Sequence record: PX418922.1
DNA length: 64,000 nucleotides
Strand: one strand, 5' to 3'
Source: a phage
The notes under the pieces are model-generated. The model had not been told where the DNA came from, made no database searches, and saw only the letters and a program-made list of their open reading frames with translations. Both the position numbers and the translations under genes were made by a program. Of the stretch, positions 3,609 to 21,277 are shown one piece after another (position 1 is the first letter of the stretch; each line of letters begins with the position of its first letter).

Positions 3609-4595
3609 ATGGCAGCACCAAAATCATGGGAACAATATAAAGAAGAGTGTCAACCAATAGCAGAGAGTAAGCAAATCCAAATCTTAGGATGGACGGGAGA
3701 ATGGAAAGGGGTTAATACAAAACTTGATTTGTTGTGTCATTGTGGTTATAAATGGGATACTACAAGTATTAACAATTTTAAACGTGGTAGTGGTTGTCCT
3801 TTATGTGGATATGAGAATACAAGGAAGGCACAAACAATATCCGACGATCAACATATTGCAGATTTCTTTTCTACAGGGAAGTTTAAGGAAGGCACTATTT
3901 TCACCAATACGGGGGAACGTAAAGGGTGTGATCCAGTATGGATGATTCAGTGTCCTGTTTGTTCTCATGATGAATATGTTAAAGCTGGACTATGTGATGG
4001 TAAGTTTTATATGACGCGTGGCAATCTTAAATATGGATACTTACCCTGCCGTTGCTCTGCATCTTATAGGTATACAGCGGAACAGATTACGTATAAAGTA
4101 AGAAAGAAAATAGAAAAGAAAGGGTATGTTTGGATAGGATGGATTACCAAACCATCTTCTATAGGTAAGTTTAAATATATATGTAAGAGTCATGGGGAAC
4201 AAAAAGGAACTGCAAACAACCTTTTAAACATAGGACAAGGTTGTCCGCAGTGTGCTAACAAAAATCAACAACAAGCCTACATTAATTATATTTACGATGA
4301 GCAAGATATTATCTGTGCACTGAAGTTTGGTATTGCTAATAATAGTAATCGCCGTATGAAAGAACAAAATAGTCATAATGTGTTCACTATGAAACAACAC
4401 CAAGTGTGGCACTTCCCTACTGTTAAGCAATGCCAAAACGCAGAGAAATATTGCAAGAAGGTGTTAAACACGGAAGCAGTGAGCAAATATTCTATGCAAG
4501 ATGGCTACACAGAAACAGTGGAGCTATCTTGCATGGCATCCGTACAGAATATTTATAAACTTTATGGTGGAACATTACAGGAGGAAACATGTTAG
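3609..4595 (+). CDS. Cys-rich protein, paralogue of 20297-21277
   Basis: RBS GAGGAG; shares ILGWTGEWKG, QQAYIN..ALKFGIA and DGYTET blocks with 20297-21277; several CxxC pairs. Confidence 0.55.
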   Translation: MAAPKSWEQYKEECQPIAESKQIQILGWTGEWKGVNTKLDLLCHCGYKWDTTSINNFKRGSGCPLCGYENTRKAQTISDDQHIADFFSTGKFKEGTIFTNTGERKGCDPVWMIQCPVCSHDEYVKAGLCDGKFYMTRGNLKYGYLPCRCSASYRYTAEQITYKVRKKIEKKGYVWIGWITKPSSIGKFKYICKSHGEQKGTANNLLNIGQGCPQCANKNQQQAYINYIYDEQDIICALKFGIANNSNRRMKEQNSHNVFTMKQHQVWHFPTVKQCQNAEKYCKKVLNTEAVSKYSMQDGYTETVELSCMASVQNIYKLYGGTLQEETC

Positions 4596-4954
4596 TTGAC
4601 GTTCAAATTATGCGCAACGAAAGAATGGACTTCTTTGAAGCAGTAGAGAAACATCTGATCAGATGGGACTATGAATTTGTTCCTGCTGGATGTGGACCAG
4701 TAGAGCATTTAGCGGAAGACGACGATGTATACATGATCATTCGTCAAGTGTACCAGACAGACCAGTGTGAAGAAACGCCCGAACTGATTTTGTTTGAGTG
4801 TAAAGATCTTGCAAAATATTTTGACTATGGCGGAAAAGAGGGTCATAATCTCTCCAGATACAATAAACGTCTACTTATCTTAGACTACATGCGGAACAAC
4901 AAACACAAACTCATCGACGCAGACGCAGTTTATGGCTACTGGTGGATGGATTAA
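4589..4954 (+). CDS. hypothetical protein (121 aa)
   Basis: RBS AGGAGG before ATG. Confidence 0.5.
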   Translation: MLVDVQIMRNERMDFFEAVEKHLIRWDYEFVPAGCGPVEHLAEDDDVYMIIRQVYQTDQCEETPELILFECKDLAKYFDYGGKEGHNLSRYNKRLLILDYMRNNKHKLIDADAVYGYWWMD

Positions 4955-4967
4955 CAAAGGAGAAACT

Positions 4968-5156
4968 ATGGCACGTTTAGCAGATAACCCTGTATTCTAC
5001 CCCGTTCTTGATCTTTATGATGAATTGACATATGTTGTGGAGCGGTATAATTACAATGAAGACCTCTTGGAGACAAACCTTAAAGTAGTTCTGATGAAAG
5101 CCTATCAGCAAGGGCAACGTGAAATTTTGGAGAGTATGAAAAATGCGAATAACTGA
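4968..5156 (+). CDS. hypothetical protein (62 aa)
   Basis: RBS AAGGAG before ATG 4968. Confidence 0.45.
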   Translation: MARLADNPVFYPVLDLYDELTYVVERYNYNEDLLETNLKVVLMKAYQQGQREILESMKNANN

Positions 5157-5685
5157 TGATTATGTATTCTTCTTTTCACATAAAGATGTTTTTAGTAATT
5201 GGTATATTGCACCCTTTACAGAAACCGAACCAGGTTACAATCAGACATTTAATTGTGTCGAACAATACATGATGTGGCGTAAAGCTTTGCTTTTTAATGA
5301 CCACAACACTGCACAGGCTATTCTGACTCATAGTTTGATACGGAAAGATGAGAAGATCCAAGCTTATTACAAACGTATGGGTAAGGCAGTGTCGGATTTT
5401 GATAACAACGTATGGGAAGAGAACCGTGAGCGTATTGTTATGCGAGGTTTATGCTTGAAATATGTACAGAATCCAGATTTGTATGCAGACTTACACCTTT
5501 ACCAATACAAAACGTTTGTTGAAGCAAGCCCCTACGATAAGGTTTACGGAATTGGAATGGGGATGTATGAACCAGGGGTGCTAAACCCTGCCACCTGGAA
5601 AGGGCAGAATCTTTTAGGTAAATATCATAATAAACTGATCGAAATACTTTTCCCAGACAAAATACCGCAAAGACGATATTTGTGA
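5143..5685 (+). CDS. NADAR (YbiA-like) domain protein
   Basis: Motifs FFFS..FSNW, E.YMMWRKALLF, EASPYDKVYGIGMG..GQNLLGK resemble the YbiA/DUF1768 N-glycosidase family. Confidence 0.5.
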   Translation: MRITDDYVFFFSHKDVFSNWYIAPFTETEPGYNQTFNCVEQYMMWRKALLFNDHNTAQAILTHSLIRKDEKIQAYYKRMGKAVSDFDNNVWEENRERIVMRGLCLKYVQNPDLYADLHLYQYKTFVEASPYDKVYGIGMGMYEPGVLNPATWKGQNLLGKYHNKLIEILFPDKIPQRRYL

Positions 5686-5911
5686 TATTTTAACTTTTTT
5701 CATTTTTAGAACAAAGGTGTCACTTTGTAGCACAGAAATAAGGCTCCTACAGCACCGTAGAGAGCCTGTTATTTTGTCCTATACAAACCCTTGTCTTTTT
5801 CAGTTTGCATCACTAGGATTCGATCTAAGTAGGTTCCTGAAGGTCTACCAATAAGATTAAAGGTTATCTCAAATTACCACTACCTGTTATCTCAAAAATT
5901 CCTCAAATTAT

Positions 5912-6112
5912 TTAAACTTTTTAAGAATTTACAAAAGTGAAAGTTGAAAACCAAAATTTAAAGTTTAGGAAAATTATCTTAAAATGTCAGATACAAAACA
6001 AAACTCAAAAGTCAAGGAAAATTTTAAAAATTTTGCGCGCCCACAGTATTTAAAGTTTTTTTGCTTTTACAAAAATGAAAGTACAAAAGCAAAATTTAAA
6101 GTTTACAAAAAT
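5912..6112. repeat. tandem imperfect direct repeats (~46-bp core, ~136-bp period) in AT-rich non-coding tract
   Basis: TACAAAAGTGAAAGTTGAAAACCAAAATTTAAAGTTTAGGAAAATT (5930-5975) vs TACAAAAATGAAAGTACAAAAGCAAAATTTAAAGTTTACAAAAATT (6066-6111); TTTAAAGTTT recurs. Confidence 0.6.
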
Positions 6113-6119
6113 TTATGCA

Positions 6120-6240
6120 GATGGGAATGAGAAGAGTTCTCATGTGGAAATGCAAATGATAATGATTCGCATTTAGGTTTATAAATGAGATTGATTCTTA
6201 TTTAATAAAGTAAATGATAATCATTCTCATTTAGAGAATG
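6120..6240. promoter_or_regulatory. cluster of palindromic operator-like sites (half-site TTCTCAT/ATGAGAA), Fur-box-like
   Basis: ATGAGAAGAGTTCTCAT (6127-6143); AATGATAATGATTCGCAT (6155-6172); TAAATGATAATCATTCTCAT (6211-6230) followed by GAGAATG. Confidence 0.45.
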
Positions 6241-6459
6241 ACGCGCAGGGGCGGTGTTTGTCTCGCGCTCCCGTGTCCCCTCGCCATGTACTAAGAATAA
6301 CAGATCCAGCCAGGAAAGCAAGCGATTATTTTATCTTTACATTTCTTTACAAATATATAGCGCCCAGCCTACCGGCGATCAACCTTCCAACCAGTGCCCC
6401 TGGTATGTTAGCCCCGCCTTTACGCCGTGGGGTGGCGCTTCCTCTTCTGTATGTAAAAC

Positions 6460-6488
6460 AGTATAAGCCCTATCCCTGGGCTTGTCAA
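6460..6488 (-). promoter_or_regulatory. sigma70-like promoter on minus strand (TTGACA-N17-TATACT)
   Basis: On minus strand TTGACA (plus 6483-6488), 17-nt spacer, TATACT (plus 6460-6465); drives GC-rich transcript toward ~6250. Confidence 0.35.
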
Positions 6489-6490
6489 GA

Positions 6491-6757
6491 TTATTTTTTG
6501 TTTTCTTGCCAGGTCAGGACACCTAGCCAAAAATGAATATCACCTTTTCCCCAATGTGGTATATTGCTTTCTTTCCCACCTTCACGCGCCCAGGTAAAAC
6601 CGCCCGTGTAACTTTGTAATTGATAACTATCCTCGACCTTATAATCTGATAGGTTGAGAACGGTTTCAACCTTTAAGCCCGTTGCGCTTGCTACCTGGTG
6701 CACCGTGCCGCCTTGCCAGCCCAATGAGTGCATAAGATGTAATGTAGTATTTGTCAT
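6491..6757 (-). CDS. hypothetical protein (88 aa)
   Basis: Minus-strand ORF in the GC-rich block; RBS AAGGG and GC hairpin upstream; divergent from the plus-strand array. Confidence 0.4.
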   Translation of the reverse strand: MTNTTLHLMHSLGWQGGTVHQVASATGLKVETVLNLSDYKVEDSYQLQSYTGGFTWAREGGKESNIPHWGKGDIHFWLGVLTWQENKK

Positions 6758-6866
6758 GGTGTCGCCCTTTCTTTGTTGTGCGCCCTGGTTGGCGCGGTAG
6801 AAAGATGATAGCCCTTTCCTTTATATATAGCAAGCAAAAAGAAAATAAAAAAGATTGAAAAAGTGG

Positions 6867-6923
6867 TTGACGTTCGCCAGGTGGCGGCATAATATTTACC
6901 ACGTAGCGCGGCAATGGTGCCGC
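6867..6923 (+). promoter_or_regulatory. early promoter unit 1 with 5' hairpin
   Basis: TTGACG-N17-TAATAT; TTACCACGTAG start region; hairpin GCGGCA-ATGG-TGCCGC 6908-6923. Confidence 0.6.
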
Positions 6924-6944
6924 TCACTATTTGGAGTTAAGATC

Positions 6945-7142
6945 ATGGCAACATTGCACATTGTGGCGAAAGCTGGACAAATCAACGTAATAGTAAACGG
7001 TTTTACTGAGTTCAGTCATCCCCAGGATGATCATGAAACGGTTTTATCTTTCATTGATTCCCTGTTAGAAATGGGAGTCATTACAGAAGACCAGCACGCT
7101 ACAAAATGCAAGCGCGTTAATCAAATTGCAGGGATAGAATAA
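6945..7142 (+). CDS. hypothetical early protein (65 aa)
   Basis: ATG 6945 after RBS GGAG downstream of unit 1. Confidence 0.5.
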   Translation: MATLHIVAKAGQINVIVNGFTEFSHPQDDHETVLSFIDSLLEMGVITEDQHATKCKRVNQIAGIE

Positions 7143-7148
7143 AAAGTA

Positions 7149-7203
7149 TTGACAACAAACAACAACCTGATAAGATGTATCACATAGGGGCGACAAGCGC
7201 CCC
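7149..7203 (+). promoter_or_regulatory. early promoter unit 2 with 5' hairpin
   Basis: TTGACA-N16-TAAGAT; GTATCACATAGGG; hairpin GGGGCG-ACAAG-CGCCCC 7187-7203. Confidence 0.6.
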
Positions 7204-7227
7204 GCCTAACAGAAGAGAGAAATCATC

Positions 7228-7500
7228 ATGGCATCATATAGCGCAACAATGATCGTAACTGGCACCACTGGTAAACCTATGAGCGGTGGCGGATCTTTCG
7301 CTAATATTAATATTGACGGGCGCTTATCCCTGGACGCAGCGATCACCGTGGCGCGGGAAACATTTAAGAAAGAATGTAAATTCAATAAACAAGATTATCT
7401 CGGTTTCGCTATTGAAAAAACCGCGCGCTTTGTTGATTATAAAAGCCCGAAAATGGTTGATACTACACTGAAAGCGCAAGATGTAGCCTTTTTGCTTTAA
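7228..7500 (+). CDS. hypothetical early protein (90 aa)
   Basis: RBS AGAGAGAAATCATC-ATG; follows unit 2. Confidence 0.55.
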   Translation: MASYSATMIVTGTTGKPMSGGGSFANINIDGRLSLDAAITVARETFKKECKFNKQDYLGFAIEKTARFVDYKSPKMVDTTLKAQDVAFLL

Positions 7501-7503
7501 GGC

Positions 7504-7559
7504 TTGACATTAACGAATAATTTGTTAATATGTTACATAAAGCGGGAATAGTTCCCGCT
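7504..7559 (+). promoter_or_regulatory. early promoter unit 3 with 5' hairpin
   Basis: TTGACA-N16-TAATAT; hairpin AGCGGGAA-TAG-TTCCCGCT 7541-7559. Confidence 0.55.
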
Positions 7560-7576
7560 ATTTGTAAGGTGGTAGA

Positions 7577-7834
7577 ATGTTTTACATCAAATTAAAAGGT
7601 CACGTGATCGCGTTCAAAGATAACGCTTTTTACAGATTAGCAAAATATGCGTTAATACATCCCCACTATGTTTATATAAGGGGGCGTGATGAAATAAATA
7701 TTTTTGATCAAACAACATGCGAAAACATCGAGATCCGCAAGGTTGGCGTACGTGATTATCGTACATCTTTCTACCCTTGCAAGGATTCAGCAAGTCTTTT
7801 TAAAGTATGCCAATTGTTGAAAAAAGGTGGTTAA
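7577..7834 (+). CDS. hypothetical early protein (85 aa)
   Basis: RBS AAGGTGG before ATG. Confidence 0.55.
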   Translation: MFYIKLKGHVIAFKDNAFYRLAKYALIHPHYVYIRGRDEINIFDQTTCENIEIRKVGVRDYRTSFYPCKDSASLFKVCQLLKKGG

Positions 7835-7835
7835 T

Positions 7836-8393
7836 ATGGGCCGCGAATATGTGATCCAGTCTTGGGTAAAACATGAAGCAGATGATCCGCGCATCATTCC
7901 CGATCATCTTATCGATGAATCCACGGGATATAGCGGTGAGCAAATAGGTAACAGATTAGCACGTAGTAACGGCAACGTAAAAGCGCGTTATGTGCGCCCT
8001 GGCTGGCTGGCAAATGGTAACGCTGATTTATCCAGTGCGGAAGATGCGAGCGACGGCGCGAAAGATAATCCTTTGTACAAAATTGATCCGGCTTTTCGTG
8101 TCCTGGATGAATACCCCAGCAAGATAGCGGCGCTCGATCAGGCCCTGGAAAGTAAGCGCATCACCTGGACCGCTTACAACATGGCAAAAAACGTACTTGA
8201 TGGTAAATTGATTCAAGCTGAAAGAAAATTAGCCAAAATTGCAGCCATAACCCAGGAGGAAGACGAGGAGACAACGGAAGAGGAAGAGTACGAAGAGATC
8301 CCGCCGTTGTTGTGTGTTGATGCTTTCCCTGATTATCAGCCGACAGAGGAAGAAAAAAGGATCGCACTAGAAAACTTTGAAAATAGTCTTTGA
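7836..8393 (+). CDS. hypothetical protein with acidic C-terminal region (185 aa)
   Basis: RBS AAAGGTGG before ATG 7836; acidic tract EEDEETTEEEEYEE. Confidence 0.55.
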   Translation: MGREYVIQSWVKHEADDPRIIPDHLIDESTGYSGEQIGNRLARSNGNVKARYVRPGWLANGNADLSSAEDASDGAKDNPLYKIDPAFRVLDEYPSKIAALDQALESKRITWTAYNMAKNVLDGKLIQAERKLAKIAAITQEEDEETTEEEEYEEIPPLLCVDAFPDYQPTEEEKRIALENFENSL

Positions 8394-8446
8394 CATATCG
8401 CCGCCACTGGCATAATATTTACCACGTAGGGCGGCAATGGTGCCGC
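8390..8446 (+). promoter_or_regulatory. early promoter unit 4 with 5' hairpin
   Basis: TTGACA-N17-TAATAT; TTACCACGTAGGG; hairpin GCGGCA-ATGG-TGCCGC 8431-8446. Confidence 0.6.
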
Positions 8447-8475
8447 TCATAGTGAAATTATGCAAGAGGTTTGCA

Positions 8476-8571
8476 ATGATTAATAAAGAAAATAGCTTGA
8501 CGGTTGGAACGATTAACGCTATCATTCTTGCCGTTCCATTTTGGATTGTATTAGCGGCTATTATTTTCTAA
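8476..8571 (+). CDS. small membrane peptide (31 aa)
   Basis: RBS AAGAGG; hydrophobic INAIILAVPFWIVLAAIIF; sits between unit 4 and unit 5. Confidence 0.4.
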   Translation: MINKENSLTVGTINAIILAVPFWIVLAAIIF

Positions 8572-8580
8572 AAAATATTC

Positions 8581-8641
8581 TTGACAACGTTTTTTAATCT
8601 GATAAGATGTATCACATAGGGCGGCGGAATACTTCCCCGCC
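8581..8641 (+). promoter_or_regulatory. early promoter unit 5 with 5' hairpin
   Basis: TTGACA-N16-TAAGAT; GTATCACATAGGG; hairpin GGCGGCGGAA-TACT-TCCCCGCC 8619-8641. Confidence 0.6.
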
Positions 8642-8662
8642 AAAACAAAAAAGGGTAACACA

Positions 8663-9025
8663 ATGAGCAAGCAAATCAATACTATCATGTTTAATCTGGT
8701 ATCTTTCCGCGATGATATGAAAAATTTACCACGTGAAACGGTTGATATTCATGTTTCAGCTTATCGCGCCCTTATTGATATGTTACCGCTAAAACGTGAT
8801 CAACATGCCGCTAATATGATGCTTAATGCTATGCTTAAAAAGATGATTCAAACGGATCTCACCCTGGCGTATGAGTATCAAGGGCGCTTATATGCAACTT
8901 ACAACAAGGCGGTACCTGGTCTGGGAAGTACCGAAGAGTTGCACGGCTTAAACCTGGATCAAAACACTTGGGATAGTATGCGCCGCGTTATGGTATGGGC
9001 CGAAAGCGGTAAAATTTACGAATAA
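8663..9025 (+). CDS. hypothetical early protein (120 aa)
   Basis: RBS AAAAGGG before ATG. Confidence 0.55.
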   Translation: MSKQINTIMFNLVSFRDDMKNLPRETVDIHVSAYRALIDMLPLKRDQHAANMMLNAMLKKMIQTDLTLAYEYQGRLYATYNKAVPGLGSTEELHGLNLDQNTWDSMRRVMVWAESGKIYE

Positions 9026-9031
9026 AAACGG

Positions 9032-9091
9032 TTGACATTGTTTAAAATTCTAGTATAGTTTACCACATAGGGCGGGAAGTGGTTTCCCGCC
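9032..9091 (+). promoter_or_regulatory. early promoter unit 6 with 5' hairpin
   Basis: TTGACA-N16-TATAGT; TTACCACATAGGG; hairpin GGCGGGAA-GTGGT-TTCCCGCC 9071-9091. Confidence 0.6.
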
Positions 9092-9113
9092 AACAATGAA
9101 AAAGGTTATCATC

Positions 9114-9479
9114 ATGGCTATTAATATTAATGTTTCCGCTTATGCTACCCTGGCTAACACGGCTAAAATTGAATTATCCAGCATTGAGGCGGTGCATATT
9201 AGCGCCCGTCGCTGGTTTCAACGGTCCTACGGTAACACATATTTTTCTTTAATGGTTGACGTTGAGATCGGCGGTAAACTGATCGAGGTGGTTAACGTTC
9301 CGTTTCAATATGGCTATGGTGATCATTTTGATACCGTCGCCCTAGAAGAGTTTAGCAAGGTTATCAACCTGGAAGGTAAAGAGTTTTCAAATTATGCCTA
9401 CCTTTCCCGTTTTTGCCGTGACAATGGGATCACTGTATACAGTCATGCGAGCGATGTAAAACGTAAAAAAGATTTATAA
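9114..9479 (+). CDS. hypothetical early protein (121 aa)
   Basis: ATG 9114 preceded by conserved AAAAAGGT..ATC context; alternative in-frame ATG at 9096. Confidence 0.5.
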   Translation: MAININVSAYATLANTAKIELSSIEAVHISARRWFQRSYGNTYFSLMVDVEIGGKLIEVVNVPFQYGYGDHFDTVALEEFSKVINLEGKEFSNYAYLSRFCRDNGITVYSHASDVKRKKDL

Positions 9480-9485
9480 AAAGCA

Positions 9486-9545
9486 TTGACAGCACGAATA
9501 AAAAGAGTAAACTGTATTACATAGAGAGCGGGAACACTTCCCGCC
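9486..9545 (+). promoter_or_regulatory. early promoter unit 7 with 5' hairpin
   Basis: TTGACA-N16-TAAACT; GTATTACATAGAG; hairpin GCGGGAA-CAC-TTCCCGC 9528-9544. Confidence 0.6.
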
Positions 9546-9568
9546 TCACTGAAAAAGAGAGAAAAATC

Positions 9569-9808
9569 ATGGCTAAATCTAAAATGTACAACGGTCACAA
9601 AAACAAAACTCATTGGAATGTAAGCCTTTGGATTAATAACGATGAATCGTTATACCGGTTGGCCCAAGATTTTATTAACGCTAATGCTAATCGTAATGAT
9701 GCGGCGCGGGATATGATGCTTTTTCTGGAACAAACTGGACAAGATAAAACGCCAGACGGTTTCAAATATAGCACTACTGCGATCCGTGCCGCGATGGTTG
9801 GAATGTAA
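9569..9808 (+). CDS. hypothetical early protein (79 aa)
   Basis: RBS AAGAGAGAAAAATC-ATG. Confidence 0.55.
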   Translation: MAKSKMYNGHKNKTHWNVSLWINNDESLYRLAQDFINANANRNDAARDMMLFLEQTGQDKTPDGFKYSTTAIRAAMVGM

Positions 9809-9817
9809 TAAAAACAG

Positions 9818-9877
9818 TTGACAACGTTTAAAATTAGTGTAAGATGTATCACATAGGGCGGGAAGTGGTTTCCCGCC
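9818..9877 (+). promoter_or_regulatory. early promoter unit 8 with 5' hairpin
   Basis: TTGACA-N16-TAAGAT; GTATCACATAGGG; hairpin GGCGGGAA-GTGGT-TTCCCGCC 9857-9877 (identical to unit 6). Confidence 0.6.
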
Positions 9878-9898
9878 AAAACAAAGAGATTAAAGATT

Positions 9899-10126
9899 AT
9901 GGCTATCAATATTGTTCGCGTATCCGGCACCGTTGGCACTTCCCAGGTTATTGCAGTTGTAACAAACAAAAAGATTAATGATGTATGTGAGATCTTGAAT
10001 AAGTGGGCTATTGCTAATTTTGGGGAATATGCAAGCGTCGAGTACATCGAATCCTACCAGGTGCCAACCATCAGCCTAACCGATCTCAACGTTGATCGCC
10101 TGTTATGCCTGGATGAATTGATCTGA
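9899..10126 (+). CDS. hypothetical early protein (75 aa)
   Basis: RBS AAAGAGA..ATT-ATG after unit 8. Confidence 0.55.
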   Translation: MAINIVRVSGTVGTSQVIAVVTNKKINDVCEILNKWAIANFGEYASVEYIESYQVPTISLTDLNVDRLLCLDELI

Positions 10127-10135
10127 AAAAGATTG

Positions 10136-10191: not shown

Positions 10192-10216
10192 TCACAACAA
10201 AAGAGAGATTATTACG

Positions 10217-10429: not shown

Positions 10430-10434
10430 AACGC

Positions 10435-14389: not shown

Positions 14390-14772
14390 AAACAGAAATC
14401 ATTATTGAAATCATCAACGGTTATAAAGAAGCCTTTATTTTTGCTGAATCAGCAAGGGATCATGAAGGTAATTTTATTGATAACTTAGACGATTATGATT
14501 TTTCTCCTAGCGTGGATCAACGGATCGCCCAGGATGTAACAGCCTTTATTAATGCTAATCTTGCCGCTATCTCTGAGGCAATGAGCGACGGCGCAACAGC
14601 CAACCAGATCGGGAATGATTTACATTTTACCCGTAACGGTCACGGCGTAGGCTTTTGGGATCGCCCTGAAATATACACCACTAACACGGCGAACCGCCTA
14701 ACCAATGCAGCTAAGTTTATGCCGAACGTGTCGGCTTACATTGGTGAAGATAATTTGATTTATATTGAATAA
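14386..14772 (+). CDS. hypothetical protein (128 aa)
   Basis: ATGA overlap with upstream ORF. Confidence 0.55.
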   Translation: MKTEIIIEIINGYKEAFIFAESARDHEGNFIDNLDDYDFSPSVDQRIAQDVTAFINANLAAISEAMSDGATANQIGNDLHFTRNGHGVGFWDRPEIYTTNTANRLTNAAKFMPNVSAYIGEDNLIYIE

Positions 14773-14778
14773 AAAGTA

Positions 14779-14837
14779 TTGACACCGATCCCCAATATGG
14801 TACTATTTACCACGTAGGCGGGAAATGGTTTCCCGCC
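14779..14837 (+). promoter_or_regulatory. early promoter unit 21 with 5' hairpin
   Basis: TTGACA-N16-TACTAT; TTACCACGTAGG; hairpin GGCGGGAAA-TGG-TTTCCCGCC 14817-14837. Confidence 0.6.
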
Positions 14838-14860
14838 AGGTAATCAAAAAGGTAAATACT

Positions 14861-15250
14861 ATGCGCAACCTGGTTTCTGTTTCTAACGTTGAAAAATTTC
14901 AATCTTTACAGGGTATCGTTAACAACGTAGCGCCTTTTTTAGTCAACGGCTTGATTGCAAAGATGAAAAATAAACATCATGCGGCATGGTCTGCTTACTG
15001 CTTTGATAATGATGAAAAAGCGGCTGAAATGATGTTAAATATGCTGTTAGACAGTGTAGAATCATCTTTACCGGAAAACATCGCAGAAGAGATCACCTAT
15101 CGTTATAATATGGCGATCACTTACCAGGAGGTTGCGCAATTTAATATGATGGACGATGACGAACAACAGGATCAGGAAATGTTTTGGGAGTATGCTGATC
15201 GTCAATCGGCTTTTGATGAAAAATTAGCGATGTATTATAACGAATATTAA
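14861..15250 (+). CDS. hypothetical early protein (129 aa)
   Basis: ATG 14861 preceded by AAAAAGGTAAATACT. Confidence 0.55.
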   Translation: MRNLVSVSNVEKFQSLQGIVNNVAPFLVNGLIAKMKNKHHAAWSAYCFDNDEKAAEMMLNMLLDSVESSLPENIAEEITYRYNMAITYQEVAQFNMMDDDEQQDQEMFWEYADRQSAFDEKLAMYYNEY

Positions 15251-15266
15251 TACACGGTAAAAGAAA

Positions 15267-15290
15267 GGGGCGCACTAAGCGCCCTTTTTT
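15267..15290 (+). terminator. rho-independent terminator
   Basis: GGGGCGCACTAAGCGCCC hairpin followed by TTTTTT. Confidence 0.7.
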
Positions 15291-15635
15291 GTATTCTTTT
15301 TTCACGATGGAAACAACACGTAAAGAATAGGCGTAAAGGTGGCGTAAAACCATCTAAAACCGACTGTAACCGCTTAAACAAGGTAGGAATGATTAATCAC
15401 CTTGCCAGGATGAAAAAGCCGTTATAAAGCTATCTAGAGCGTTTAAAGCACATAGGAAATAATTTGCTTTTTATCTTGCCTTTTACCCTGCTTTTGATTA
15501 TTATTATGGAACGGGCGGCACCTGGAGACAGGGGAAGATAATCACCGGAAGATCCCGCTATATATTGATAGCTAATACCTATTAAACAACAAAACATCAA
15601 AGGAATAAACTATCAAATCTTTACAATTCTACCTA

Positions 15636-15670
15636 TTGACACCGGATCGCCCTTATACTAAGATGTATCA
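15636..15670 (+). promoter_or_regulatory. early promoter unit 22 (no GC hairpin)
   Basis: TTGACA-N17-TAAGAT; GTATCACGTAGGG conserved start region but downstream hairpin absent. Confidence 0.5.
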
Positions 15671-15710
15671 CGTAGGGCAAATGATTTTAAACGGTAAACG
15701 AGGAATCACC

Positions 15711-16094
15711 ATGAGCAATATCATCAACCTGGCAGCGACTGTAAACGGTAAAGACTTTAACGGCGCTGTAGACCGTGATCCTATGTGGTACTTGTCAGTG
15801 TTTAAAGGCGATCTGGTTGAAGTTAGAACAACCGAAGGGTATAGCGATGATTATAAATGCGAGATTCATTTACATAATTGGTACACGGGTAAAACTTATG
15901 CGCTGAATCACGCGTTTATCGGAAAAATCGAATATCGTGAGATGATCGACGAAGAAACGGGGCAAGATTTTAGCGAAAACGTTTATATTCGTTCCGAGAC
16001 ATTAGCCGAACGTTTGATCGAGAAAATGAAAGCAAAAAATAAAATTAATTTATCTCATTGGATTGATATAACAAACGATCCAGCTTATCAGTAA
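15711..16094 (+). CDS. hypothetical early protein (127 aa)
   Basis: RBS CGAGGAATCACC-ATG. Confidence 0.55.
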   Translation: MSNIINLAATVNGKDFNGAVDRDPMWYLSVFKGDLVEVRTTEGYSDDYKCEIHLHNWYTGKTYALNHAFIGKIEYREMIDEETGQDFSENVYIRSETLAERLIEKMKAKNKINLSHWIDITNDPAYQ

Positions 16095-16110
16095 ATAACA
16101 TTTCATACCA

Positions 16111-16136
16111 GGGCGCACAAAGCGCCCTTTCTTTTT
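16111..16136 (+). terminator. rho-independent terminator
   Basis: GGGCGCACAAAGCGCCC hairpin followed by TTTCTTTTT. Confidence 0.7.
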
Positions 16137-16139
16137 GCC

Positions 16140-17150
16140 CGAACAATGTTGATAGATTCCGCCTATGGAAAACCGACACAGAACAAAACTGAATAAATAG
16201 CGGTATCAAGCTAATCAACCATTAAATGAATAACCATACCTCCCAGGGTAACAGGCTGTTAGAGAGCCATTTAAAGCGGTTAAAATCGATCAACAACCAA
16301 CAACAAACCATCAAAAACACCCTTTTACCTCCTTTCTAGTGCAATGATAACCATTATCATCTATCCATGTTTATCTATACAATATAAGTGCATAATTATA
16401 ATGTTGATAATAGTTCGCAACAACTAACCAACAAACAACATAAAACAATAAGCAAACTAATCATAATCAAAGGAATAATAGCAAGATGATTGATAACAAC
16501 AAACAATCAAACCATGATGAATACTAAGCAAGATAACGATAACACGACAAAACAACCAACTAACGAACAATAACAAACGAAACCATTAAAATAATAACTA
16601 TTGCCATAATAGTGACTAAATGAAATCATTACAAAACGAATCATTCACAGAGTCATCATTAGCACGCTATGCCGGACACATAGCGAGCTAATAATAAGCC
16701 AACTACACCCCAACAATCATAACCATCGGTGATGGTTATTTCTTGTTACTGCGTAGCTTGCAATAATTGCAAGCGTAATGACGCTTACACTTATTGCGCT
16801 GGCTTATTATTAGCATTATATGTAATTACCAAGATCATAACATTAGCGCAATAACAATAATCATTGTGGTAATTACGTAAGGAAACAATTAGCATGGCAA
16901 TAATTATGGGGCAATGGGAGGATGATTATCATCATTCCGATACATTGCACACTATGCACATAATAGAATAAAAAGCAATAATTTTGGGGGCGAAATGTTA
17001 CCGCCACAGGCGGGAATGTTGAGCACTAAGAAAAGAGATAAACCTTAATCATGGGGGCGTAAATATCCGCAGGATTGCCAACGGCGATCCGGTAGGATGT
17101 TGAGCATCTTCTCTTAAACGTAAATAAAATCAGAAAATTCTTGATTTATT
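16140..17150. other. A+C-rich, G-poor non-coding tract with palindromes (candidate origin, regulatory region or ncRNA)
   Basis: About 1 kb without credible ORF; runs of CAACAA/AACAAA; palindromes CTTGCAATAATTGCAAG (~16757), GATGATTATCATC (~16920), AGCGT-AATG-ACGCT (~16774). Confidence 0.45.
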
Positions 17151-17174
17151 TTAGTTTTTATGTTAATAAACGTT

Positions 17175-17379
17175 TAAATAATAATCATTCTCATATAAAT
17201 AATAGTCTGCTTGTCATGAGCGGGATTAGTTGACAATGTTCCGTCATATGATGAAGTTGCCAACCTATTGATAAATAAGTGTTTGTGTGATTTATAATCA
17301 AGTGGCCCACCTTGTCGCTACGTTGGCATAAGCCTTGCATAAGTCATTGAATACGAATGATAATTATTCTCATTCGCAT
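17175..17379. promoter_or_regulatory. second cluster of Fur-box-like / TTCTCAT palindromic sites
   Basis: TAAATAATAATCATTCTCAT (17175-17194) is 19/20 identical to 6211-6230; AATGATAATTATTCTCATTCGCAT (17356-17379) matches 6155-6172. Confidence 0.45.
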
Positions 17380-17493
17380 GATATTTGGGAATTGTCGCTG
17401 CGTGGACCTGACGGCCCGAAAATTCGCGTTAAGCACTTCTTACGTATGCGCCATGATTTTTGCCATATGATATTGATTCTATTAGATATTCTT

Positions 17494-17678
17494 GCCATGA
17501 TTGCCATGAAACAGGGTGTCCCGAAATAATCTTTCCCCGTAGATATTTTGGGTTACTTTTTATACAAGAGTGGGGTGTCAAAAATAATCGGTATATATGG
17601 GATAATTGATAGGAATCCCCTATGATAATTCGATTGTAATTCCCTGAGATTGATCGTATGATGTTGGTGATTGATGAT
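17494..17678. repeat. direct repeats ATGATTGCCATGAAA (two copies ~170 bp apart) and GGTGTC..AAATAATC
   Basis: Copies at ~17494-17508 and ~17664-17678; GGTGTCCCGAAATAATC (~17515) vs GGTGTCAAAAATAATC (~17573). Confidence 0.35.
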
Positions 17679-17715
17679 TGCCATGAAAGATGGCTAACGA
17701 TGAGAGGAGATTATC

Positions 17716-18090
17716 ATGCAAGAGAGTAAAAATATTCCGTTGAGCAGTGCAGCATTGCTTCGCTTCTATAAAGCATGGATTGCCAACTATCCTGCAATGA
17801 ATCGCACAACGAGTGGCTTATGTGGTTGTCTGGTGGATTATGTAGATGATTTTGTTGGTGAGACAACTAGAGAAGAAGATAGAAGATGGCGGGATAGTTT
17901 GTTGGACCGTTTGAAATATGAAATGAGGAGACAATTTACATGTGCAGGGCTGGACTATAATCTTCCGTTCAATGCAGATTGCATGGATTACCTTTCAGAG
18001 TGTATAAACTTGGCGTGTCATACCAACACGTTACGTCTTCAGTGGGTGAAAGACAGAATTGAAGATGCAAATAATGTTTGCATTGAATAA
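17716..18090 (+). CDS. GLCxCL-family small protein (124 aa), paralogue set member 1
   Basis: RBS GAGGAG; motifs FYKAW..YP, GLCGCL, C-terminal LRLQWVKDR shared with 22323, 28117, 29422 ORFs. Confidence 0.6.
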   Translation: MQESKNIPLSSAALLRFYKAWIANYPAMNRTTSGLCGCLVDYVDDFVGETTREEDRRWRDSLLDRLKYEMRRQFTCAGLDYNLPFNADCMDYLSECINLACHTNTLRLQWVKDRIEDANNVCIE

Positions 18091-18149
18091 AAATGTCTGT
18101 ATAGTGGTTTGCATACCGCGCATAACAGATAGCCAATGAGGAGATTGAA

Positions 18150-18359
18150 ATGTCAAATATGAAAACTGTATCCTTGTATTTAGCTAACACTGATCGTGTG
18201 CACACCCTTGCTAACGCAAGTCGTGTACTCGTGCAGTTCCGAAACTTTAAGCCGTCCGTTGTGACAGGCAGTGAAACGTGTGTTATCGATTTCATTAACG
18301 AATACTTCCGAGGGAATCCGGTTGGTCGTTACTTTATTAAGGGTTTGAAGGATGCATAG
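18150..18359 (+). CDS. hypothetical protein (69 aa)
   Basis: RBS GAGGAG before ATG. Confidence 0.55.
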   Translation: MSNMKTVSLYLANTDRVHTLANASRVLVQFRNFKPSVVTGSETCVIDFINEYFRGNPVGRYFIKGLKDA

Positions 18360-18360
18360 T

Positions 18361-18582
18361 ATGAAACGCATGAAAATTCGTATTGAGAATGATGGTGGTT
18401 ATAAAGGATTGGCACATGCAAAATTTCCACTTGTGTTGGAAGCTACGGTGGAATACAGTGGGCTTGCTCATGTGCGATTCTCGAAGATGATGGAAGTGCA
18501 GGAATGGTTTTGGGACGAGATAGATGCACGAGAAGGAGAAGATTATGTTTTCTTTCCTCACGAATATAACATTGTTTATTAA
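18361..18582 (+). CDS. hypothetical protein (73 aa), paralogue of 23033-23254
   Basis: Shared block EWFWDE..EGEDYVFF with 23033 ORF; alternative ATG at 18352. Confidence 0.5.
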   Translation: MKRMKIRIENDGGYKGLAHAKFPLVLEATVEYSGLAHVRFSKMMEVQEWFWDEIDAREGEDYVFFPHEYNIVY

Positions 18583-18594
18583 AGGTTGTGTGCA

Positions 18595-18834
18595 ATGATC
18601 ACACCACAACAGAATGAAGCAGCAATGGATCTTCTTGATAGTTTGTATTTCGATAATTGGTACTCTGAATGTGAATGGATGAATATGCAAACTCTGAAAG
18701 AGAAGACAAAAGCGTTGATTACAGTAGATCAATTTCTTGCAGAGACGGAAAGAATGAATTATGATATGGCATCTCGCGCACGACGCGTTTCCATTTTCAA
18801 TAAAATGTTAGCATTATGGGGAGGTAGAAAATGA
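18595..18834 (+). CDS. hypothetical protein (79 aa)
   Basis: ATG 18595 after AAAGG; in-frame GTG at 18586 possible. Confidence 0.5.
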   Translation: MITPQQNEAAMDLLDSLYFDNWYSECEWMNMQTLKEKTKALITVDQFLAETERMNYDMASRARRVSIFNKMLALWGGRK

Positions 18835-19292
18835 GACAACCATCTATACTGGAAGCGCATGTGCAATGTGTTGTAGATTATGTCAAAGAACACTCAAGTT
18901 TGTTGAATGTAACCTGTGCAGTGCAAAATGATGTAGGTATTGTCTGTGTGCAACATATCTTATCTGAAACTCGTTATGAAGTATTTCGTGCCACGTTGTT
19001 TGGATGTGATCGAGTGCATGTAAACTTCCTGGACTCCAATTATCGTTATGCTTTAGAAAATATTGATGATTATCTTCCTTGCTCTCCGACAGGATATGTA
19101 ATGGTAACAGCAAACGAAGTAACACCGAGCAACAGTGAACAGGAAGCTTTGTTACGGAAGAAAATACGCCAACTGCAAGTGTTGAATGAACTGAAAGAAG
19201 AGATTGAAAAAGAACTGAAAGAAGATTTTGGTATGCTTCCAAAAGACGCTTTGAAATGGTATGATGAGTTAGGAGGAGAGAACAATGTTTAA
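18831..19292 (+). CDS. hypothetical protein (153 aa)
   Basis: RBS GGAGG; ATGA overlap with upstream ORF. Confidence 0.55.
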   Translation: MRQPSILEAHVQCVVDYVKEHSSLLNVTCAVQNDVGIVCVQHILSETRYEVFRATLFGCDRVHVNFLDSNYRYALENIDDYLPCSPTGYVMVTANEVTPSNSEQEALLRKKIRQLQVLNELKEEIEKELKEDFGMLPKDALKWYDELGGENNV

Positions 19293-19743
19293 AGAAGGTC
19301 ATGTCTACCGTTTCCAGGATGAGGATTATATGCGATTATATTCTACCTTTGATAACAGTATTGCTGCTATCATTGGAGAGAATTTTTTCGAGGTGTTGAG
19401 CACTGATGCAAATGGTAATATCTTGTCAATGGTTGTAATAGGTATGAGAGACGGTATTATCACTGCTGGTGATGGGGATCGTTACATAATCAATTCTGCT
19501 CATATAGATTATTTTGTTGACGGTGGTGTTCGTGGTGGTCGTGGAAAACCCCAAGAAGAACCTGTTGATACAACAAAAGAAGAGTGGTATGTTGTAATGA
19601 CTGATGACACCTGTATTTCTGGATTTGAAAGTTATGAAGAAGCTTTGAAAGAAGCAGCAGAGCATAAAATGGCTAATCCTACAGAAGAGGTTGAAGTTTA
19701 TAAACGTTTGGTTGTTGCTACCATCGGCGTATCTTTTGTTTAA
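19285..19743 (+). CDS. hypothetical protein (152 aa)
   Basis: RBS AGGAGGAG; overlaps upstream stop. Confidence 0.55.
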   Translation: MFKEGHVYRFQDEDYMRLYSTFDNSIAAIIGENFFEVLSTDANGNILSMVVIGMRDGIITAGDGDRYIINSAHIDYFVDGGVRGGRGKPQEEPVDTTKEEWYVVMTDDTCISGFESYEEALKEAAEHKMANPTEEVEVYKRLVVATIGVSFV

Positions 19744-19755
19744 AAGGGGAATGTT

Positions 19756-20193
19756 ATGTTTAAAGTTAATGCTGTTTACTGTTTCAAAAGTAAAGCTGCC
19801 TGTGAAGCTTTCTCTATGATCTCTGATGAAAATTTCAAAATGGCAGCTTTGATTGAAGGGTCTTGTTTCCGCGTCGAGGATGTTAGTGAATCAGGGTCTG
19901 TTTGCTCATTGACTTTATTGGACAGCGGGGATATTATTGAAGCTGGACAGTATCCGTTCAGGAGTTGGGAGATATTGTTAGCTCGCGGAGAGCGTAACTT
20001 TTTTATGTGCGTGTCTGCGGGGGAAGTTGTGAAAGAAACTAAGGATGTTTCTGTTTACAATTCTGAATTTATAAGTTATAGTGAGTATCAACATCTGGAA
20101 GGCATTGTTGGTCACTTGTTATCTCTGATTGACATTGAATGTGACCTGCCTGAATCATTGAAAGAAGAGTTGAAAGCATTAGATCTGCTGTAA
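19756..20193 (+). CDS. hypothetical protein (145 aa)
   Basis: RBS AAAGGGG before ATG. Confidence 0.55.
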   Translation: MFKVNAVYCFKSKAACEAFSMISDENFKMAALIEGSCFRVEDVSESGSVCSLTLLDSGDIIEAGQYPFRSWEILLARGERNFFMCVSAGEVVKETKDVSVYNSEFISYSEYQHLEGIVGHLLSLIDIECDLPESLKEELKALDLL

Positions 20194-20296
20194 TGTTTCG
20201 CACAACGGAGACTAAGCATGTCGATTGTTTACCTGGCTGTTTGGTTCCGCTGTGATTTGTTTGTCCTGTCGGGGCATTTTTAGGAGTCTGGAAGTA

Positions 20297-21277
20297 ATGG
20301 CTAAAACTAAAAGTTGGGAAGAACATTTAAAAGATTGTTTAGAGGTTGTAAAACCAGGTGTTAAGATACTAGGATGGTCAGGAGAATGGAAAGGAGCACA
20401 TACCCGTTTGCGGTGCGTGTGTTCTGTTCACGGGGAATGGACTTCCACCACAATACATAAGTTTAAAATGGGGAGAAGTTGTCCAGGTTGTAGGACAGAT
20501 GCTTCAGCCCATGCTAGACACAACGGAGATAAGTTTTGGTTGGATTTGTTGTATAATTTTTGTCAAGAACGAGATTTCTTTTTTGAAGTGCCTCAACCTC
20601 CTATCTACGGTAGGTCTGAAATCAAGATCTGCTGCCCGAAACACGGTACATTTAGAAGTACACTAAGTAATATACAAAAACAAAGATCATGTCCCATGTG
20701 TAAAGTAGATGCAGCCAGAGAGAATAATCTTTTACCTGACCAATATCACGTGGAGAAGTACATGGCGACAGGTTCTTTTCCACAGGGCAGTTTATTTCGT
20801 AGAATAGGTAAAACAAGAAGTTCGAAAGGTTCAGCACAAACATGGGAGTGCTACTGTCCCACATGCAATGAAACACATCTTGCACGTGATAGCAATCTGG
20901 CTCAAGGTAAGCGACCATGTTCTTGTTCAGGGAATAATCAGAAGCAAGCGTACATTAATGTGGTATTTGACAACAACACTCCTATAGCTTTAAAGTTTGG
21001 AATAGCAAGAAACAGTGCACAAAGATTAGCCGCACAAAATAAAAAGAATTTTTTGAAGATGGATTGCTTGGCGGTATATTCTTTCAGAACAGTCAGAGAA
21101 TGTAAAGCTGCGGAACGCGCTTGTAAGAGGATGCTGGTCTGTAGTACAGTAGGTAAGAAAGAAATGGTTGACGGGTATACTGAAACAACATATATTTCTA
21201 ATTACGATACAATTGTGGATATCTATAAGAAGTTTGGAGGTGTGAAGTTGCAAATGATAAAGAAGAGTACCGAGTGA
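20297..21277 (+). CDS. Cys-rich protein, paralogue of 3609-4595
   Basis: RBS AGGAG before ATG 20297; N-terminus MAKTKSWEEHLKDC parallels MAAPKSWEQYKEEC; shared ILGWSGEWKG, KQAYIN..ALKFGIA, DGYTET. Confidence 0.55.
   Translation: MAKTKSWEEHLKDCLEVVKPGVKILGWSGEWKGAHTRLRCVCSVHGEWTSTTIHKFKMGRSCPGCRTDASAHARHNGDKFWLDLLYNFCQERDFFFEVPQPPIYGRSEIKICCPKHGTFRSTLSNIQKQRSCPMCKVDAARENNLLPDQYHVEKYMATGSFPQGSLFRRIGKTRSSKGSAQTWECYCPTCNETHLARDSNLAQGKRPCSCSGNNQKQAYINVVFDNNTPIALKFGIARNSAQRLAAQNKKNFLKMDCLAVYSFRTVRECKAAERACKRMLVCSTVGKKEMVDGYTETTYISNYDTIVDIYKKFGGVKLQMIKKSTE

What the first reader, a model, noticed from the sequence alone, without database searches (positions are those of the whole stretch)
3609..21277. 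Two ~327-aa Cys-rich paralogues 17 kb apart
3609-4595 and 20297-21277 share N-terminal (K/T)KSWE..(K/L)..C, ILGW(T/S)GEWKG, multiple CxxC pairs, and a C-terminal KQ(Q)AYIN..(I/P)(C/I)ALKFGIA(N/R)NS..R...QN ... DGYTET block. The C-terminal block loosely resembles the T5orf172/GIY-YIG-like nuclease fold, so these may be a duplicated mobile or nucleic-acid-acting gene, but I cannot assign the family with confidence.
Basis: partly seen in the sequence, partly recalled or inferred. Interest (0 to 1): 0.5.

Follow-up and report, generated by a model that had tools for sequence, protein, structure and literature searches.

The report
Two zinc-finger GIY-YIG homing endonuclease genes
The two cysteine-rich genes are diverged members of a known family of selfish phage nuclease genes (CapR zinc-finger DNA-binding modules joined to a T5orf172/GIY-YIG nuclease); one sits at a site always occupied in related coliphages and the other is a rare recent insertion, so the finding is real but ordinary.

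Summary
ORFs 3609-4595 (328 aa, HEG1) and 20297-21277 (326 aa, HEG2) align end to end (31% identity, E 3e-43).

- **Host genome.** The window is a phAPEC8-like coliphage (Phapecoctavirus).
- **Catalytic positions.** The residues I read as the GIY-YIG core Tyr, Lys-x-Gly, Arg and Glu are (near-)invariant in 100 homologues and present in both proteins.
- **Known family.** These are the CapR-T5orf172 homing endonuclease genes described for Vibrio phage ICP1 and other phages (PMC8096241, PMC10448857).
- **Not a duplication.** There is no meaningful DNA similarity, and the module order differs (A-B-A' versus A-A''-B).
- **HEG1.** Its site, after an AAA ATPase gene, held an endonuclease gene in every well-assembled relative inspected, in two genera, with mosaic alleles of 328-486 aa. 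The window allele lacks one 66-aa module found in its nearest relatives.
- **HEG2.** It is absent from all 68 GenBank relatives. Its 1096-bp cassette replaces 241 bp, including most of a conserved 99-aa gene.

Nuclease activity and homing are inferred, not shown. Verdict: new member of a known kind, low interest.

The parts
3550..3569 (+). Terminator-like hairpin (AAACCCGC-TTCG-GCGGGTTT followed by a T-rich tail) between the ATPase stop codon and the HEG1 ribosome-binding site. It marks the left edge of the HEG1 cassette.
   Evidence: Scan result (8 pairs, 5 G-C) and the sequence. Similarity to HEG-allele-different relatives ends at 3536. Nucleotide similarity to Justusliebigvirus starts at 3550.
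3609..4595 (+). HEG1: a 328-aa CapR zinc-finger / T5orf172 (GIY-YIG superfamily) endonuclease gene.
   Evidence: (PHROG 681 'endonuclease', E 4e-70). Relatives annotate the syntenic gene as 'endonuclease' or 'putative homing endonuclease'.
3609..3818 (+). HEG1 module A (aa 1-70). CapR-type zinc finger with candidate ligands C43, C45, C63, C66.
   Evidence: PF21817 E 6.5e-13; Cys positions.
3775..3800 (+). Approximate crossover point of the in-frame 198-bp (66-aa) module deletion relative to nepoznato gp115. It lies in the conserved 'SFK(R/H)GSGC' coding stretch shared by two adjacent modules.
   Evidence: Overlapping BLAST segments and the three-way alignment.
3819..4064 (+). HEG1 module B (aa 71-152). 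CapR-type zinc finger, C115-x2-C118 ... C147-x-C149.
   Evidence: PF21817 E 4.9e-13. It is homologous to the third module of HEG2, E 2e-11.
4065..4262 (+). HEG1 module A' (aa 153-218). CapR/DUF723-type zinc finger, C192-x2-H195 ... C212-x2-C215.
   Evidence: PF21817 E 1.9e-6 and DUF723 E 0.007. It resembles A-type modules.
4263..4595 (+). HEG1 nuclease domain (aa 219-328). Family-conserved residues: Y224, K239, G241, R249, E279, E302.
20208..21303 (+). HEG2 cassette: 1096 bp present here and in two Logan contigs. It replaces 241 bp of the relatives inspected in detail.
   Evidence: Breakpoints. No DNA match in 50,697 phage records. Same junctions in L004 and L005.
20297..21277 (+). HEG2: a 326-aa CapR zinc-finger / T5orf172-like (GIY-YIG fold) endonuclease gene.
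20297..20506 (+). HEG2 module A (aa 1-70). C40/C42/H45 ... C62-x2-C65.
   Evidence: PF21817 E 3e-10. 42% identical to HEG1 module A.
20507..20710 (+). HEG2 module A'' (aa 71-138). A degenerate A-type zinc finger, C113-x2-H116 ... C132-x2-C135.
   Evidence: No Pfam hit. Similar to HEG2 module A, E 3e-5. Lower pLDDT, 66-87.
20711..20935 (+). HEG2 module B (aa 139-213). C187-x2-C190 ... C208-x-C210.
   Evidence: PF21817 E 1.3e-4, 22.5 bits, just under the cut-off. Homologous to HEG1 module B, E 2e-11.
20936..21277 (+). HEG2 nuclease domain (aa 214-326). Family-conserved residues: Y219, K233, G235, R243, E273, E296.
21304..21375 (+). Remnant of the displaced gene: the last 23 codons and stop of a 99-aa gene (PHROG 15686) that is intact in the relatives inspected.
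   Evidence: tblastn residues 77-99, 100% identity; PHROG hit.

Best explanation
Both genes are free-standing homing endonuclease genes of the CapR-T5orf172 family. Each protein carries three independently folded Cys/His zinc-finger modules that read a long DNA site. These modules position a C-terminal GIY-YIG-superfamily nuclease domain. That domain would cut genomes of co-infecting related phages that lack the gene or carry a different allele. Recombinational repair from the HEG-bearing genome then copies the gene and flanking markers into the cut genome.

HEG2 is a recent arrival. Its cassette replaced the 5' three-quarters of a small conserved gene, which probably removed its own target and made the carrier immune.

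HEG1 sits at a long-occupied hotspot just after an AAA ATPase gene. Alleles there replace each other and exchange or lose DNA-binding modules.

Shown here: homology, domain composition, fold, conservation of the candidate catalytic residues, insertion polymorphism and allele mosaicism. Inferred: zinc binding, DNA cleavage, target location and active homing.
For: **Family and fold**
- CapR domain hits: E 8e-29 and 1e-12. PHROG 681 'endonuclease': E 4e-70 and 1e-44.
- tblastn links to ICP1 'putative homing endonuclease' genes: 33% identity, E 1e-31, 3-5 copies per ICP1 genome.
- The family is large: 3402 50%-identity cluster representatives at E <= 1e-3.
- Tyr, Lys-x-Gly, Arg and Glu are invariant or at least 90% conserved in 100 homologues and present in both proteins. 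Reading these as the GIY-YIG catalytic positions rests on my own knowledge of the motif order.
- The literature reports that CapR's four Cys are needed for DNA binding (PMC8096241). It also reports T5orf172 nuclease activity dependent on a Glu inferred to be catalytic by alignment with GIY-YIG enzymes (PMC10448857).

**Mobility**
- HEG2 is absent from all 68 relatives whose flanks match at 90-99%.
- The breakpoints are sharp, at 20207/20208 and 21303/21304.
- The same cassette occurs at the same site in a related but non-identical phage from two Logan runs.
- At locus 1, homology to relatives carrying other alleles breaks at 3536 and resumes at 4044 or 4579.
- Locus 1 alleles of 328, 329, 394, 402 and 486 aa carry 1 to 3 A-type repeats.

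**Function retained**
- The ORFs are intact. HEG1 omega is about 0.2-0.6, against 0 for the flanking genes.
Against: - No experiment supports cleavage or homing for these two proteins, and no target site has been identified.
- The sequence match to Pfam T5orf172 is marginal. HEG2 is below the cut-off, and only 1 and 5 of 100 family members reach E <= 1e-3 for T5orf172 and MUG113 respectively.
- HEG1 was present in every well-assembled relative inspected, across two genera. A purely selfish element with no empty sites left should decay, so a host-beneficial role is possible.
- HEG2 replaced part of a gene rather than inserting cleanly. That points to illegitimate recombination at its origin.
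- The elevated identity around HEG2 in the Logan contigs is not specific, because HEG-less relatives are just as similar in those flanks.
Confidence: 0.8

Rival explanations
1. HEG1 is a domesticated derivative that serves the phage rather than acting as a selfish element. It could be a nuclease aimed at satellites or competing phages, as ICP1 Odn is. It could also be a site-specific DNA-binding regulator, as PLE CapR is and as I-TevI is in autorepression (the I-TevI case cited from PMC10448857).
For: - An endonuclease gene is syntenic after the AAA ATPase gene in the Phapecoctavirus and Justusliebigvirus relatives inspected.
- The ORFs are intact and the nuclease domain has omega of about 0.23.
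- The literature describes co-option of T5orf172 genes, including RepA_N-T5orf172 genes in the related phages Muut and Mt1B1_P17 (PMC10448857).
- A terminator-like hairpin lies directly upstream, which could limit expression.
Against: - The locus shows allele replacement with sharp boundaries and module shuffling, as expected for competing selfish alleles.
- Non-synonymous change is much higher than in the flanking genes.
- No satellite-derived DNA-binding domain such as RepA_N is present; only CapR modules were found.
Confidence: 0.12
2. The two genes arose by duplication within this genome and then diverged. This is a literal reading of 'paralogues 17 kb apart'.
For: They share the same overall length and family, with full-length alignment at E 3e-43.
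Against: - Identity is only 31% at protein level, with no meaningful DNA similarity.
- The module order differs: A-B-A' against A-A''-B.
- HEG2 is absent from all 68 close relatives, whereas the locus-1 gene is present in the relatives inspected.
- Other family members are closer to HEG2 (44-48% identity) than HEG1 is.
Confidence: 0.03
3. One or both genes are inactive, decaying remnants of homing endonuclease genes with no current activity.
For: - HEG2's middle module no longer matches any Pfam model and has the lowest model confidence.
- HEG1 has lost one module relative to its nearest relatives.
- omega is raised relative to the neighbouring genes.
Against: - Both genes are full-length open reading frames with ribosome-binding sites.
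- All family-invariant nuclease residues and four candidate zinc ligands per module are retained.
- The models are confident.
- One-module alleles of HEG1 are common and intact in other phages.
Confidence: 0.05

Closest known systems
CapR-domain T5orf172 homing endonuclease genes of Vibrio phage ICP1 (Gp174, Gp165, Gp121, Gp53, Gp130) and other phages (Netter et al. 2021, PMC8096241; Barth, Dunham & Seed 2023, PMC10448857)
   Same: - Same architecture: repeated CapR-type zinc-finger modules at the N-terminus and a T5orf172 domain at the C-terminus.
- tblastn 33% identity, E 1e-31, to ICP1 'putative homing endonuclease'.
- Free-standing genes, several per genome.
- Repeat-number variation and an in-frame deletion between repeats, as described for ICP1 gp174*.
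- Position at boundaries of sequence exchange.
   Different: - The host phage lineage differs: Stephanstirmvirinae coliphages.
- HEG2 is at most 48% identical to any other cluster representative and absent from GenBank phages.
- The nuclease domain of this subfamily is so diverged that Pfam T5orf172 barely detects it.
- The two copies here have permuted module order.
Syntenic 'endonuclease' genes of Phapecoctavirus and Justusliebigvirus (for example nepoznato gp115 YP_009986016.1, anhysbys gp075, VEcB gp136)
   Same: - Same locus after the AAA ATPase gene.
- The HEG1-containing query (window 3000-5200) is 96.8% DNA-identical to nepoznato over matched parts, and HEG1 is 67% protein-identical to VEcB gp136.
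- Already annotated as an endonuclease or putative homing endonuclease.
   Different: - The window allele lacks one 66-aa module present in nepoznato, phAPEC8 and ECML-183-2.
- Other relatives carry partly or wholly different alleles.
PLE CapR (capsid operon repressor of the Vibrio cholerae satellite PLE)
   Same: It shares the zinc-finger DNA-binding module (Pfam PF21817). CapR's Cys pairs are experimentally required for DNA binding (PMC8096241).
   Different: As described in the papers, CapR acts as a transcriptional repressor derived from the HEGs' DNA-binding domain and is not reported as a nuclease. The window proteins keep a complete nuclease domain with conserved candidate catalytic residues.
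Classical GIY-YIG homing endonucleases of T4 (I-TevI, SegA-G) and SLX1-type GIY-YIG nucleases
   Same: - Same two-part logic of nuclease plus separate DNA-binding domain.
- Free-standing genes between phage genes, causing marker exclusion and co-conversion (my own knowledge of the T4 systems).
   Different: - The domain order is reversed: the nuclease is C-terminal here and N-terminal in I-TevI and the Seg proteins.
- The second core motif reads K-F-G instead of Y-I-G.
- DNA binding uses tandem zinc-finger modules rather than NUMOD or helix-turn-helix modules.

Membership tests
CapR homology domain proteins (Pfam PF21817) | Significant match to the curated profile above its gathering score | tested here: met
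   Whole proteins score 100.1 and 48.2 bits against a cut-off of 24.2. Isolated modules: HEG1 A 49.1, B 49.5, A' 28.4; HEG2 A 40.6, B 22.5 (just below the cut-off), A'' no hit. All 100 aligned homologues match.
CapR homology domain proteins (Pfam PF21817) | Two pairs of Cys (or Cys/His) zinc ligands per module (CxxC ... CxC as in CapR) | tested here: met
   Each of the six modules has four candidate ligands. B modules have CxxC...CxC, as CapR does. A-type modules have CxC or CxxH ... CxxC. Metal binding itself was not tested.
T5orf172 domain (Pfam PF10544; GIY-YIG clan) | Match to the curated profile above its gathering score (20 bits) | tested here: inconclusive
   Isolated C-terminal domain: HEG1 21.6 bits (passes), HEG2 16.8 bits (fails). 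Whole proteins score 18.7 and 14.7 bits. Only 1 of 100 homologues reaches E <= 1e-3.
GIY-YIG nuclease superfamily | Characteristic alpha/beta catalytic fold | tested here: met
   [not shown]
GIY-YIG nuclease superfamily | Conserved catalytic residues: Tyr of motif 1, Gly of motif 2, Arg, Glu | tested here: met
   Y219/Y224 (at least 90% conserved), K233-x-G235 / K239-x-G241, R243/R249 and E296/E302 (invariant) in 100 homologues. The residue-by-residue correspondence to I-TevI was inferred from motif order, not from a printed structural alignment.
Homing endonuclease genes (functional class) | Presence/absence polymorphism at a homologous site in related genomes | tested here: met
   HEG2 is absent from 68 of 68 GenBank relatives with matching flanks, and present at the same site in two Logan contigs. 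HEG1 shows allele replacement rather than an empty site.
Homing endonuclease genes (functional class) | Site-specific cleavage of the HEG-less allele and super-Mendelian inheritance | not testable with these tools
   This needs biochemistry and mixed-infection crosses.

The most novel reading that the evidence does not exclude
The CapR modules may behave as independently swappable recognition units. Differences in module number (1 to 3 A repeats among alleles at locus 1) and order (A-B-A' against A-A''-B) would then directly re-program the cleavage site. That would make this family a natural modular zinc-finger nuclease system. On this reading, the always-occupied locus-1 gene would be kept because it acts as an inter-phage exclusion weapon, not merely as a parasite.
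Probability: 0.2. Interest if true: 0.5.

Novelty: new member of a known kind. Interest (0 to 1): 0.2.

Why it matters
It mostly tidies annotation. Two Cys-rich proteins of unclear function become CapR-T5orf172 homing endonuclease genes, a family already described in ICP1 and other phages.

The useful specifics are:
- A previously undeposited family member (HEG2) with a precisely mapped insertion that destroyed a conserved 99-aa gene.
- A clean natural example of module loss by recombination between adjacent zinc-finger repeats.
- Permuted module order in two copies within one genome.
- A locus after the AAA ATPase gene that has held such a gene across two genera.

Together these give a convenient coliphage system for testing homing and target re-programming in this under-characterised nuclease family.

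Tried and rejected
- **Sequence search of the PDB.** Neither HEG1 alone nor the 100-sequence profile gave a meaningful hit.
- **NCBIfam.** No relevant model.
- **DNA search for the HEG2 cassette in 50,697 phage records.** No match, so the donor is unknown.
- **Context of the closest different homologue, P0011.** It sits on a 2-kb contig and was uninformative.
- **Co-conversion tract around HEG2.** Identity to the Logan contig is 99-100% from 19600 to 21800 and lower beyond. HEG-less relatives are about as similar in the same flanks, so I do not count this as evidence of homing.
- **The apparently HEG-less relative at locus 1 (vB_EcoM_EP57).** That record is 130 kb, has many tiny ORFs and carries a fused 1506-bp ORF at the site. 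I treated it as a deletion or assembly problem rather than an empty site.
- **Intragenomic duplication.** Rejected.
- **Base composition.** It gives no sign of foreign origin: GC 0.37 and 0.40 against 0.387 for the window.


Full report
**1. Observation**

Both ORFs are real and lie on the + strand: 3609..4595 (328 aa, here HEG1) and 20297..21277 (326 aa, here HEG2). The mechanical ORF for HEG2 begins at TTG 20225. ATG 20297 is the better start for three reasons: an AGGAG lies 10 nt upstream, it aligns with the HEG1 start (MAAPKSWE / MAKTKSWE), and it is the start called for a 99%-identical database protein.

The two proteins align over their full length with 31% identity, E 3e-43. Taken piece by piece, the N-terminal module gives E 1e-21, one internal module E 2e-11, and the C-terminal 110 residues are 47% identical at E 2e-29. 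The resemblance is therefore homology, not shared Cys spacing. All quoted motifs are present.

At DNA level there is no meaningful similarity; the best match is 25 nt.

**2. Where the window comes from**

Megablast places the window in the phAPEC8-like coliphages (Stephanstirmvirinae, genus Phapecoctavirus). The best matches at locus 1 are 97.5% (ECML-183-2) and 96.8% (nepoznato). No record is identical.

**3. What the proteins are**

- **Pfam and PHROGs.** Pfam finds the CapR homology domain (PF21817) in both proteins: E 8e-29 with three stretches, and E 1e-12 with two. PHROG 681 'endonuclease' matches at E 4e-70 and 1e-44.
- **HEG1 modules.** Scanning the pieces separately and comparing them with each other gives A (aa 1-70), B (71-152), A' (153-218) and then the C-terminal domain (219-328).
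- **HEG2 modules.** A (1-70), A'' (71-138; degenerate, no Pfam hit but similar to its own module A at E 3e-5), B (139-213) and then the C-terminal domain (214-326).
- **Permuted order.** The B module sits second in HEG1 and third in HEG2, so the order of DNA-binding modules is permuted.
- **Zinc ligands.** Every module keeps four candidate ligands. B modules have CxxC...CxC, as in CapR. A-type modules have CxC or CxxH followed by CxxC.

**4. The C-terminal domain**

By sequence it is only a marginal T5orf172/MUG113 match. Isolated, HEG1 scores 21.6 bits against a cut-off of 20, and HEG2 scores 16.8 bits. Among 100 homologues, only 1 and 5 reach E <= 1e-3 for T5orf172 and MUG113.

In the family alignment the invariant or near-invariant nuclease-domain residues are Y219, K233, G235, R243, E273 and E296 in HEG2. 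In HEG1 they are Y224, K239, G241, R249, E279 and E302. By motif order these correspond to the GIY Tyr, the YIG Gly (here K-F-G), and the catalytic Arg and Glu. That mapping is my inference, not a printed structural alignment.

**5. Relation to what is known**

This architecture is the CapR-T5orf172 homing endonuclease family.
- Netter et al. 2021 (PMC8096241) showed that the PLE satellite repressor CapR is related to the N-terminal domains of ICP1 proteins carrying C-terminal T5orf172 domains. They also showed that CapR's four conserved Cys are required for DNA binding.
- Barth, Dunham and Seed 2023 (PMC10448857) surveyed 229 T5orf172 HEGs and found repeated CapR, DUF723 or DUF4397 zinc-finger domains in 87% of them.
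- The same paper documents domain shuffling and an in-frame deletion between repeats (gp174*). It argues that such nuclease genes sit at boundaries of genetic exchange, and notes that T5orf172 activity depends on a Glu inferred to be catalytic.
- Its dataset includes Stephanstirmvirinae phages (Muut, Mt1B1_P17).

Here, tblastn links HEG1 to ICP1 'putative homing endonuclease' genes (33% identity, E 1e-31, 3-5 places per genome) and to 397 phage records in all. An exhaustive phmmer search gives 3402 cluster representatives at E <= 1e-3.

**6. Locus 1 (HEG1)**

An endonuclease gene follows the AAA ATPase gene (2394..3533; Pfam AAA, PHROG 2376) in every well-assembled relative inspected, in both Phapecoctavirus and Justusliebigvirus. 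The alleles differ in the following ways.
- **Sizes.** 328 aa (window), 329 (VEcB), 394 (nepoznato), 402 (anhysbys) and 486 (3A1), with one, one, two, two and three A-type repeats.
- **Boundaries.** Homology to relatives with other alleles stops at 3536, three bases after the ATPase stop. It resumes at 4044 in anhysbys, so only module A' plus the nuclease is shared, or at 4579 in 3A1, where the whole gene differs.
- **Module deletion.** Against nepoznato, the window allele lacks exactly 198 bp, which is 66 aa or one module. The crossover falls in the roughly 28-bp stretch encoding SFK(R/H)GSGC that ends two adjacent modules. This mirrors ICP1 gp174*.
- **Recombination joint inside the gene.** dS against nepoznato is 0.03 in the DNA-binding part and 0.28 in the nuclease part.
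- **Selection.** omega is 0.2-0.6, against 0 in both flanking genes (counts are small).
- **Left edge.** A terminator-like hairpin at 3550-3569 precedes the ribosome-binding site. It is exactly where nucleotide similarity to the other genus begins.

**7. Locus 2 (HEG2)**

- **Absent from relatives.** All 68 relatives that match the flanks at 90-99% lack the gene; coverage is 47-50%.
- **Breakpoints.** Window 20208-21303 (1096 bp) replaces 241 bp of relatives such as vB_EcoM_3A1_SA_NWU. The replaced segment holds the ribosome-binding site and the first 76 codons of a conserved 99-aa gene (PHROG 15686). Its last 23 codons survive at 21304-21375.
- **No known donor.** The cassette has no DNA match in 50,697 phage records. 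The best protein identity there is 34%, and the best in the 1.84-billion-representative library other than itself is 44-48%.
- **Seen elsewhere.** A 99%-identical protein occurs at the same site, with the same junctions, in two Logan assemblies (ERR3178453, ERR3178548). Their flanks are 92-99% identical to the window, so they come from a related but different phage.

**8. Mechanism**

The best-supported reading is that both are free-standing homing endonuclease genes. Tandem zinc-finger modules would recognise a long site. The GIY-YIG-type domain would cut genomes lacking the gene or carrying another allele. Repair would then copy the gene and nearby markers. HEG2's cassette removed 241 bp of the recipient locus, which plausibly included its own target.

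Cleavage, target sites, zinc binding and actual homing are inferences.

The main rival applies to HEG1. Because it is present in every relative inspected, across two genera, it may be retained for a phage-beneficial role such as exclusion of competitors or satellites, or regulation. There are precedents in this family: Odn and CapR. Decay and intragenomic duplication are poorly supported.

**9. Verdict**

The family is already described, and HEG1's homologues are already annotated as endonucleases.

HEG2 is a new sequence-level member at a newly mapped insertion site. The module deletion and the module permutation are tidy illustrations of known behaviour. Novelty: new member of a known kind. 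Interest: low.

Noticed in passing
window 27030-27707 (+): A 225-aa ORF matches PHROG 125 'DNA invertase' (E 1e-32) and PHROG 95 'integrase'. This is a serine-recombinase-like gene in a Phapecoctavirus, a group I understand to be lytic. It might control an invertible segment.
   Followed up: no
window 5143-5685 (+): A 180-aa protein with a strong NADAR domain match (PF08719, E 2e-35). Several relatives annotate a gene under the match as 'GTP cyclohydrolase II'. From my own knowledge, NADAR domains reverse ADP-ribosylation, so this may be a counter-defence gene.
   Followed up: no
window 18831-20193 (+); L002 1557-2342: Three tandem 145-153-aa genes lie just upstream of HEG2. The second and third both start with MFK and share PHROG 3710; the first matches PHROG 14944. 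The relative vB_Ec-G1 carries an extra 261-aa gene annotated 'goF mRNA metabolism modulator' between the second and third. The region is variable independently of the HEG.
   Followed up: partly
window 20297-20940 (HEG2 residues 18-214): The DNA-binding part of HEG2 also matches PHROG 559 'HNH endonuclease' (E 1.5e-11). CapR-type modules therefore appear to be shared between GIY-YIG-type and HNH-type phage nucleases.
   Followed up: no
L006 (OR544956.1, vB_EcoM_EP57) 1395-2900: In this 130-kb relative the ATPase gene and the HEG region are replaced by a single fused 1506-bp ORF, and the neighbourhood is full of very short ORFs. This looks like a deletion or a low-quality assembly rather than a true HEG-free site.
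   Followed up: partly
window 20262-20286 (+): A weak terminator-like hairpin followed by TTTTT lies immediately upstream of the HEG2 ribosome-binding site, inside the inserted cassette. It parallels the stronger hairpin upstream of HEG1 at 3550-3569. Both cassettes may carry their own expression-limiting element.
   Followed up: partly
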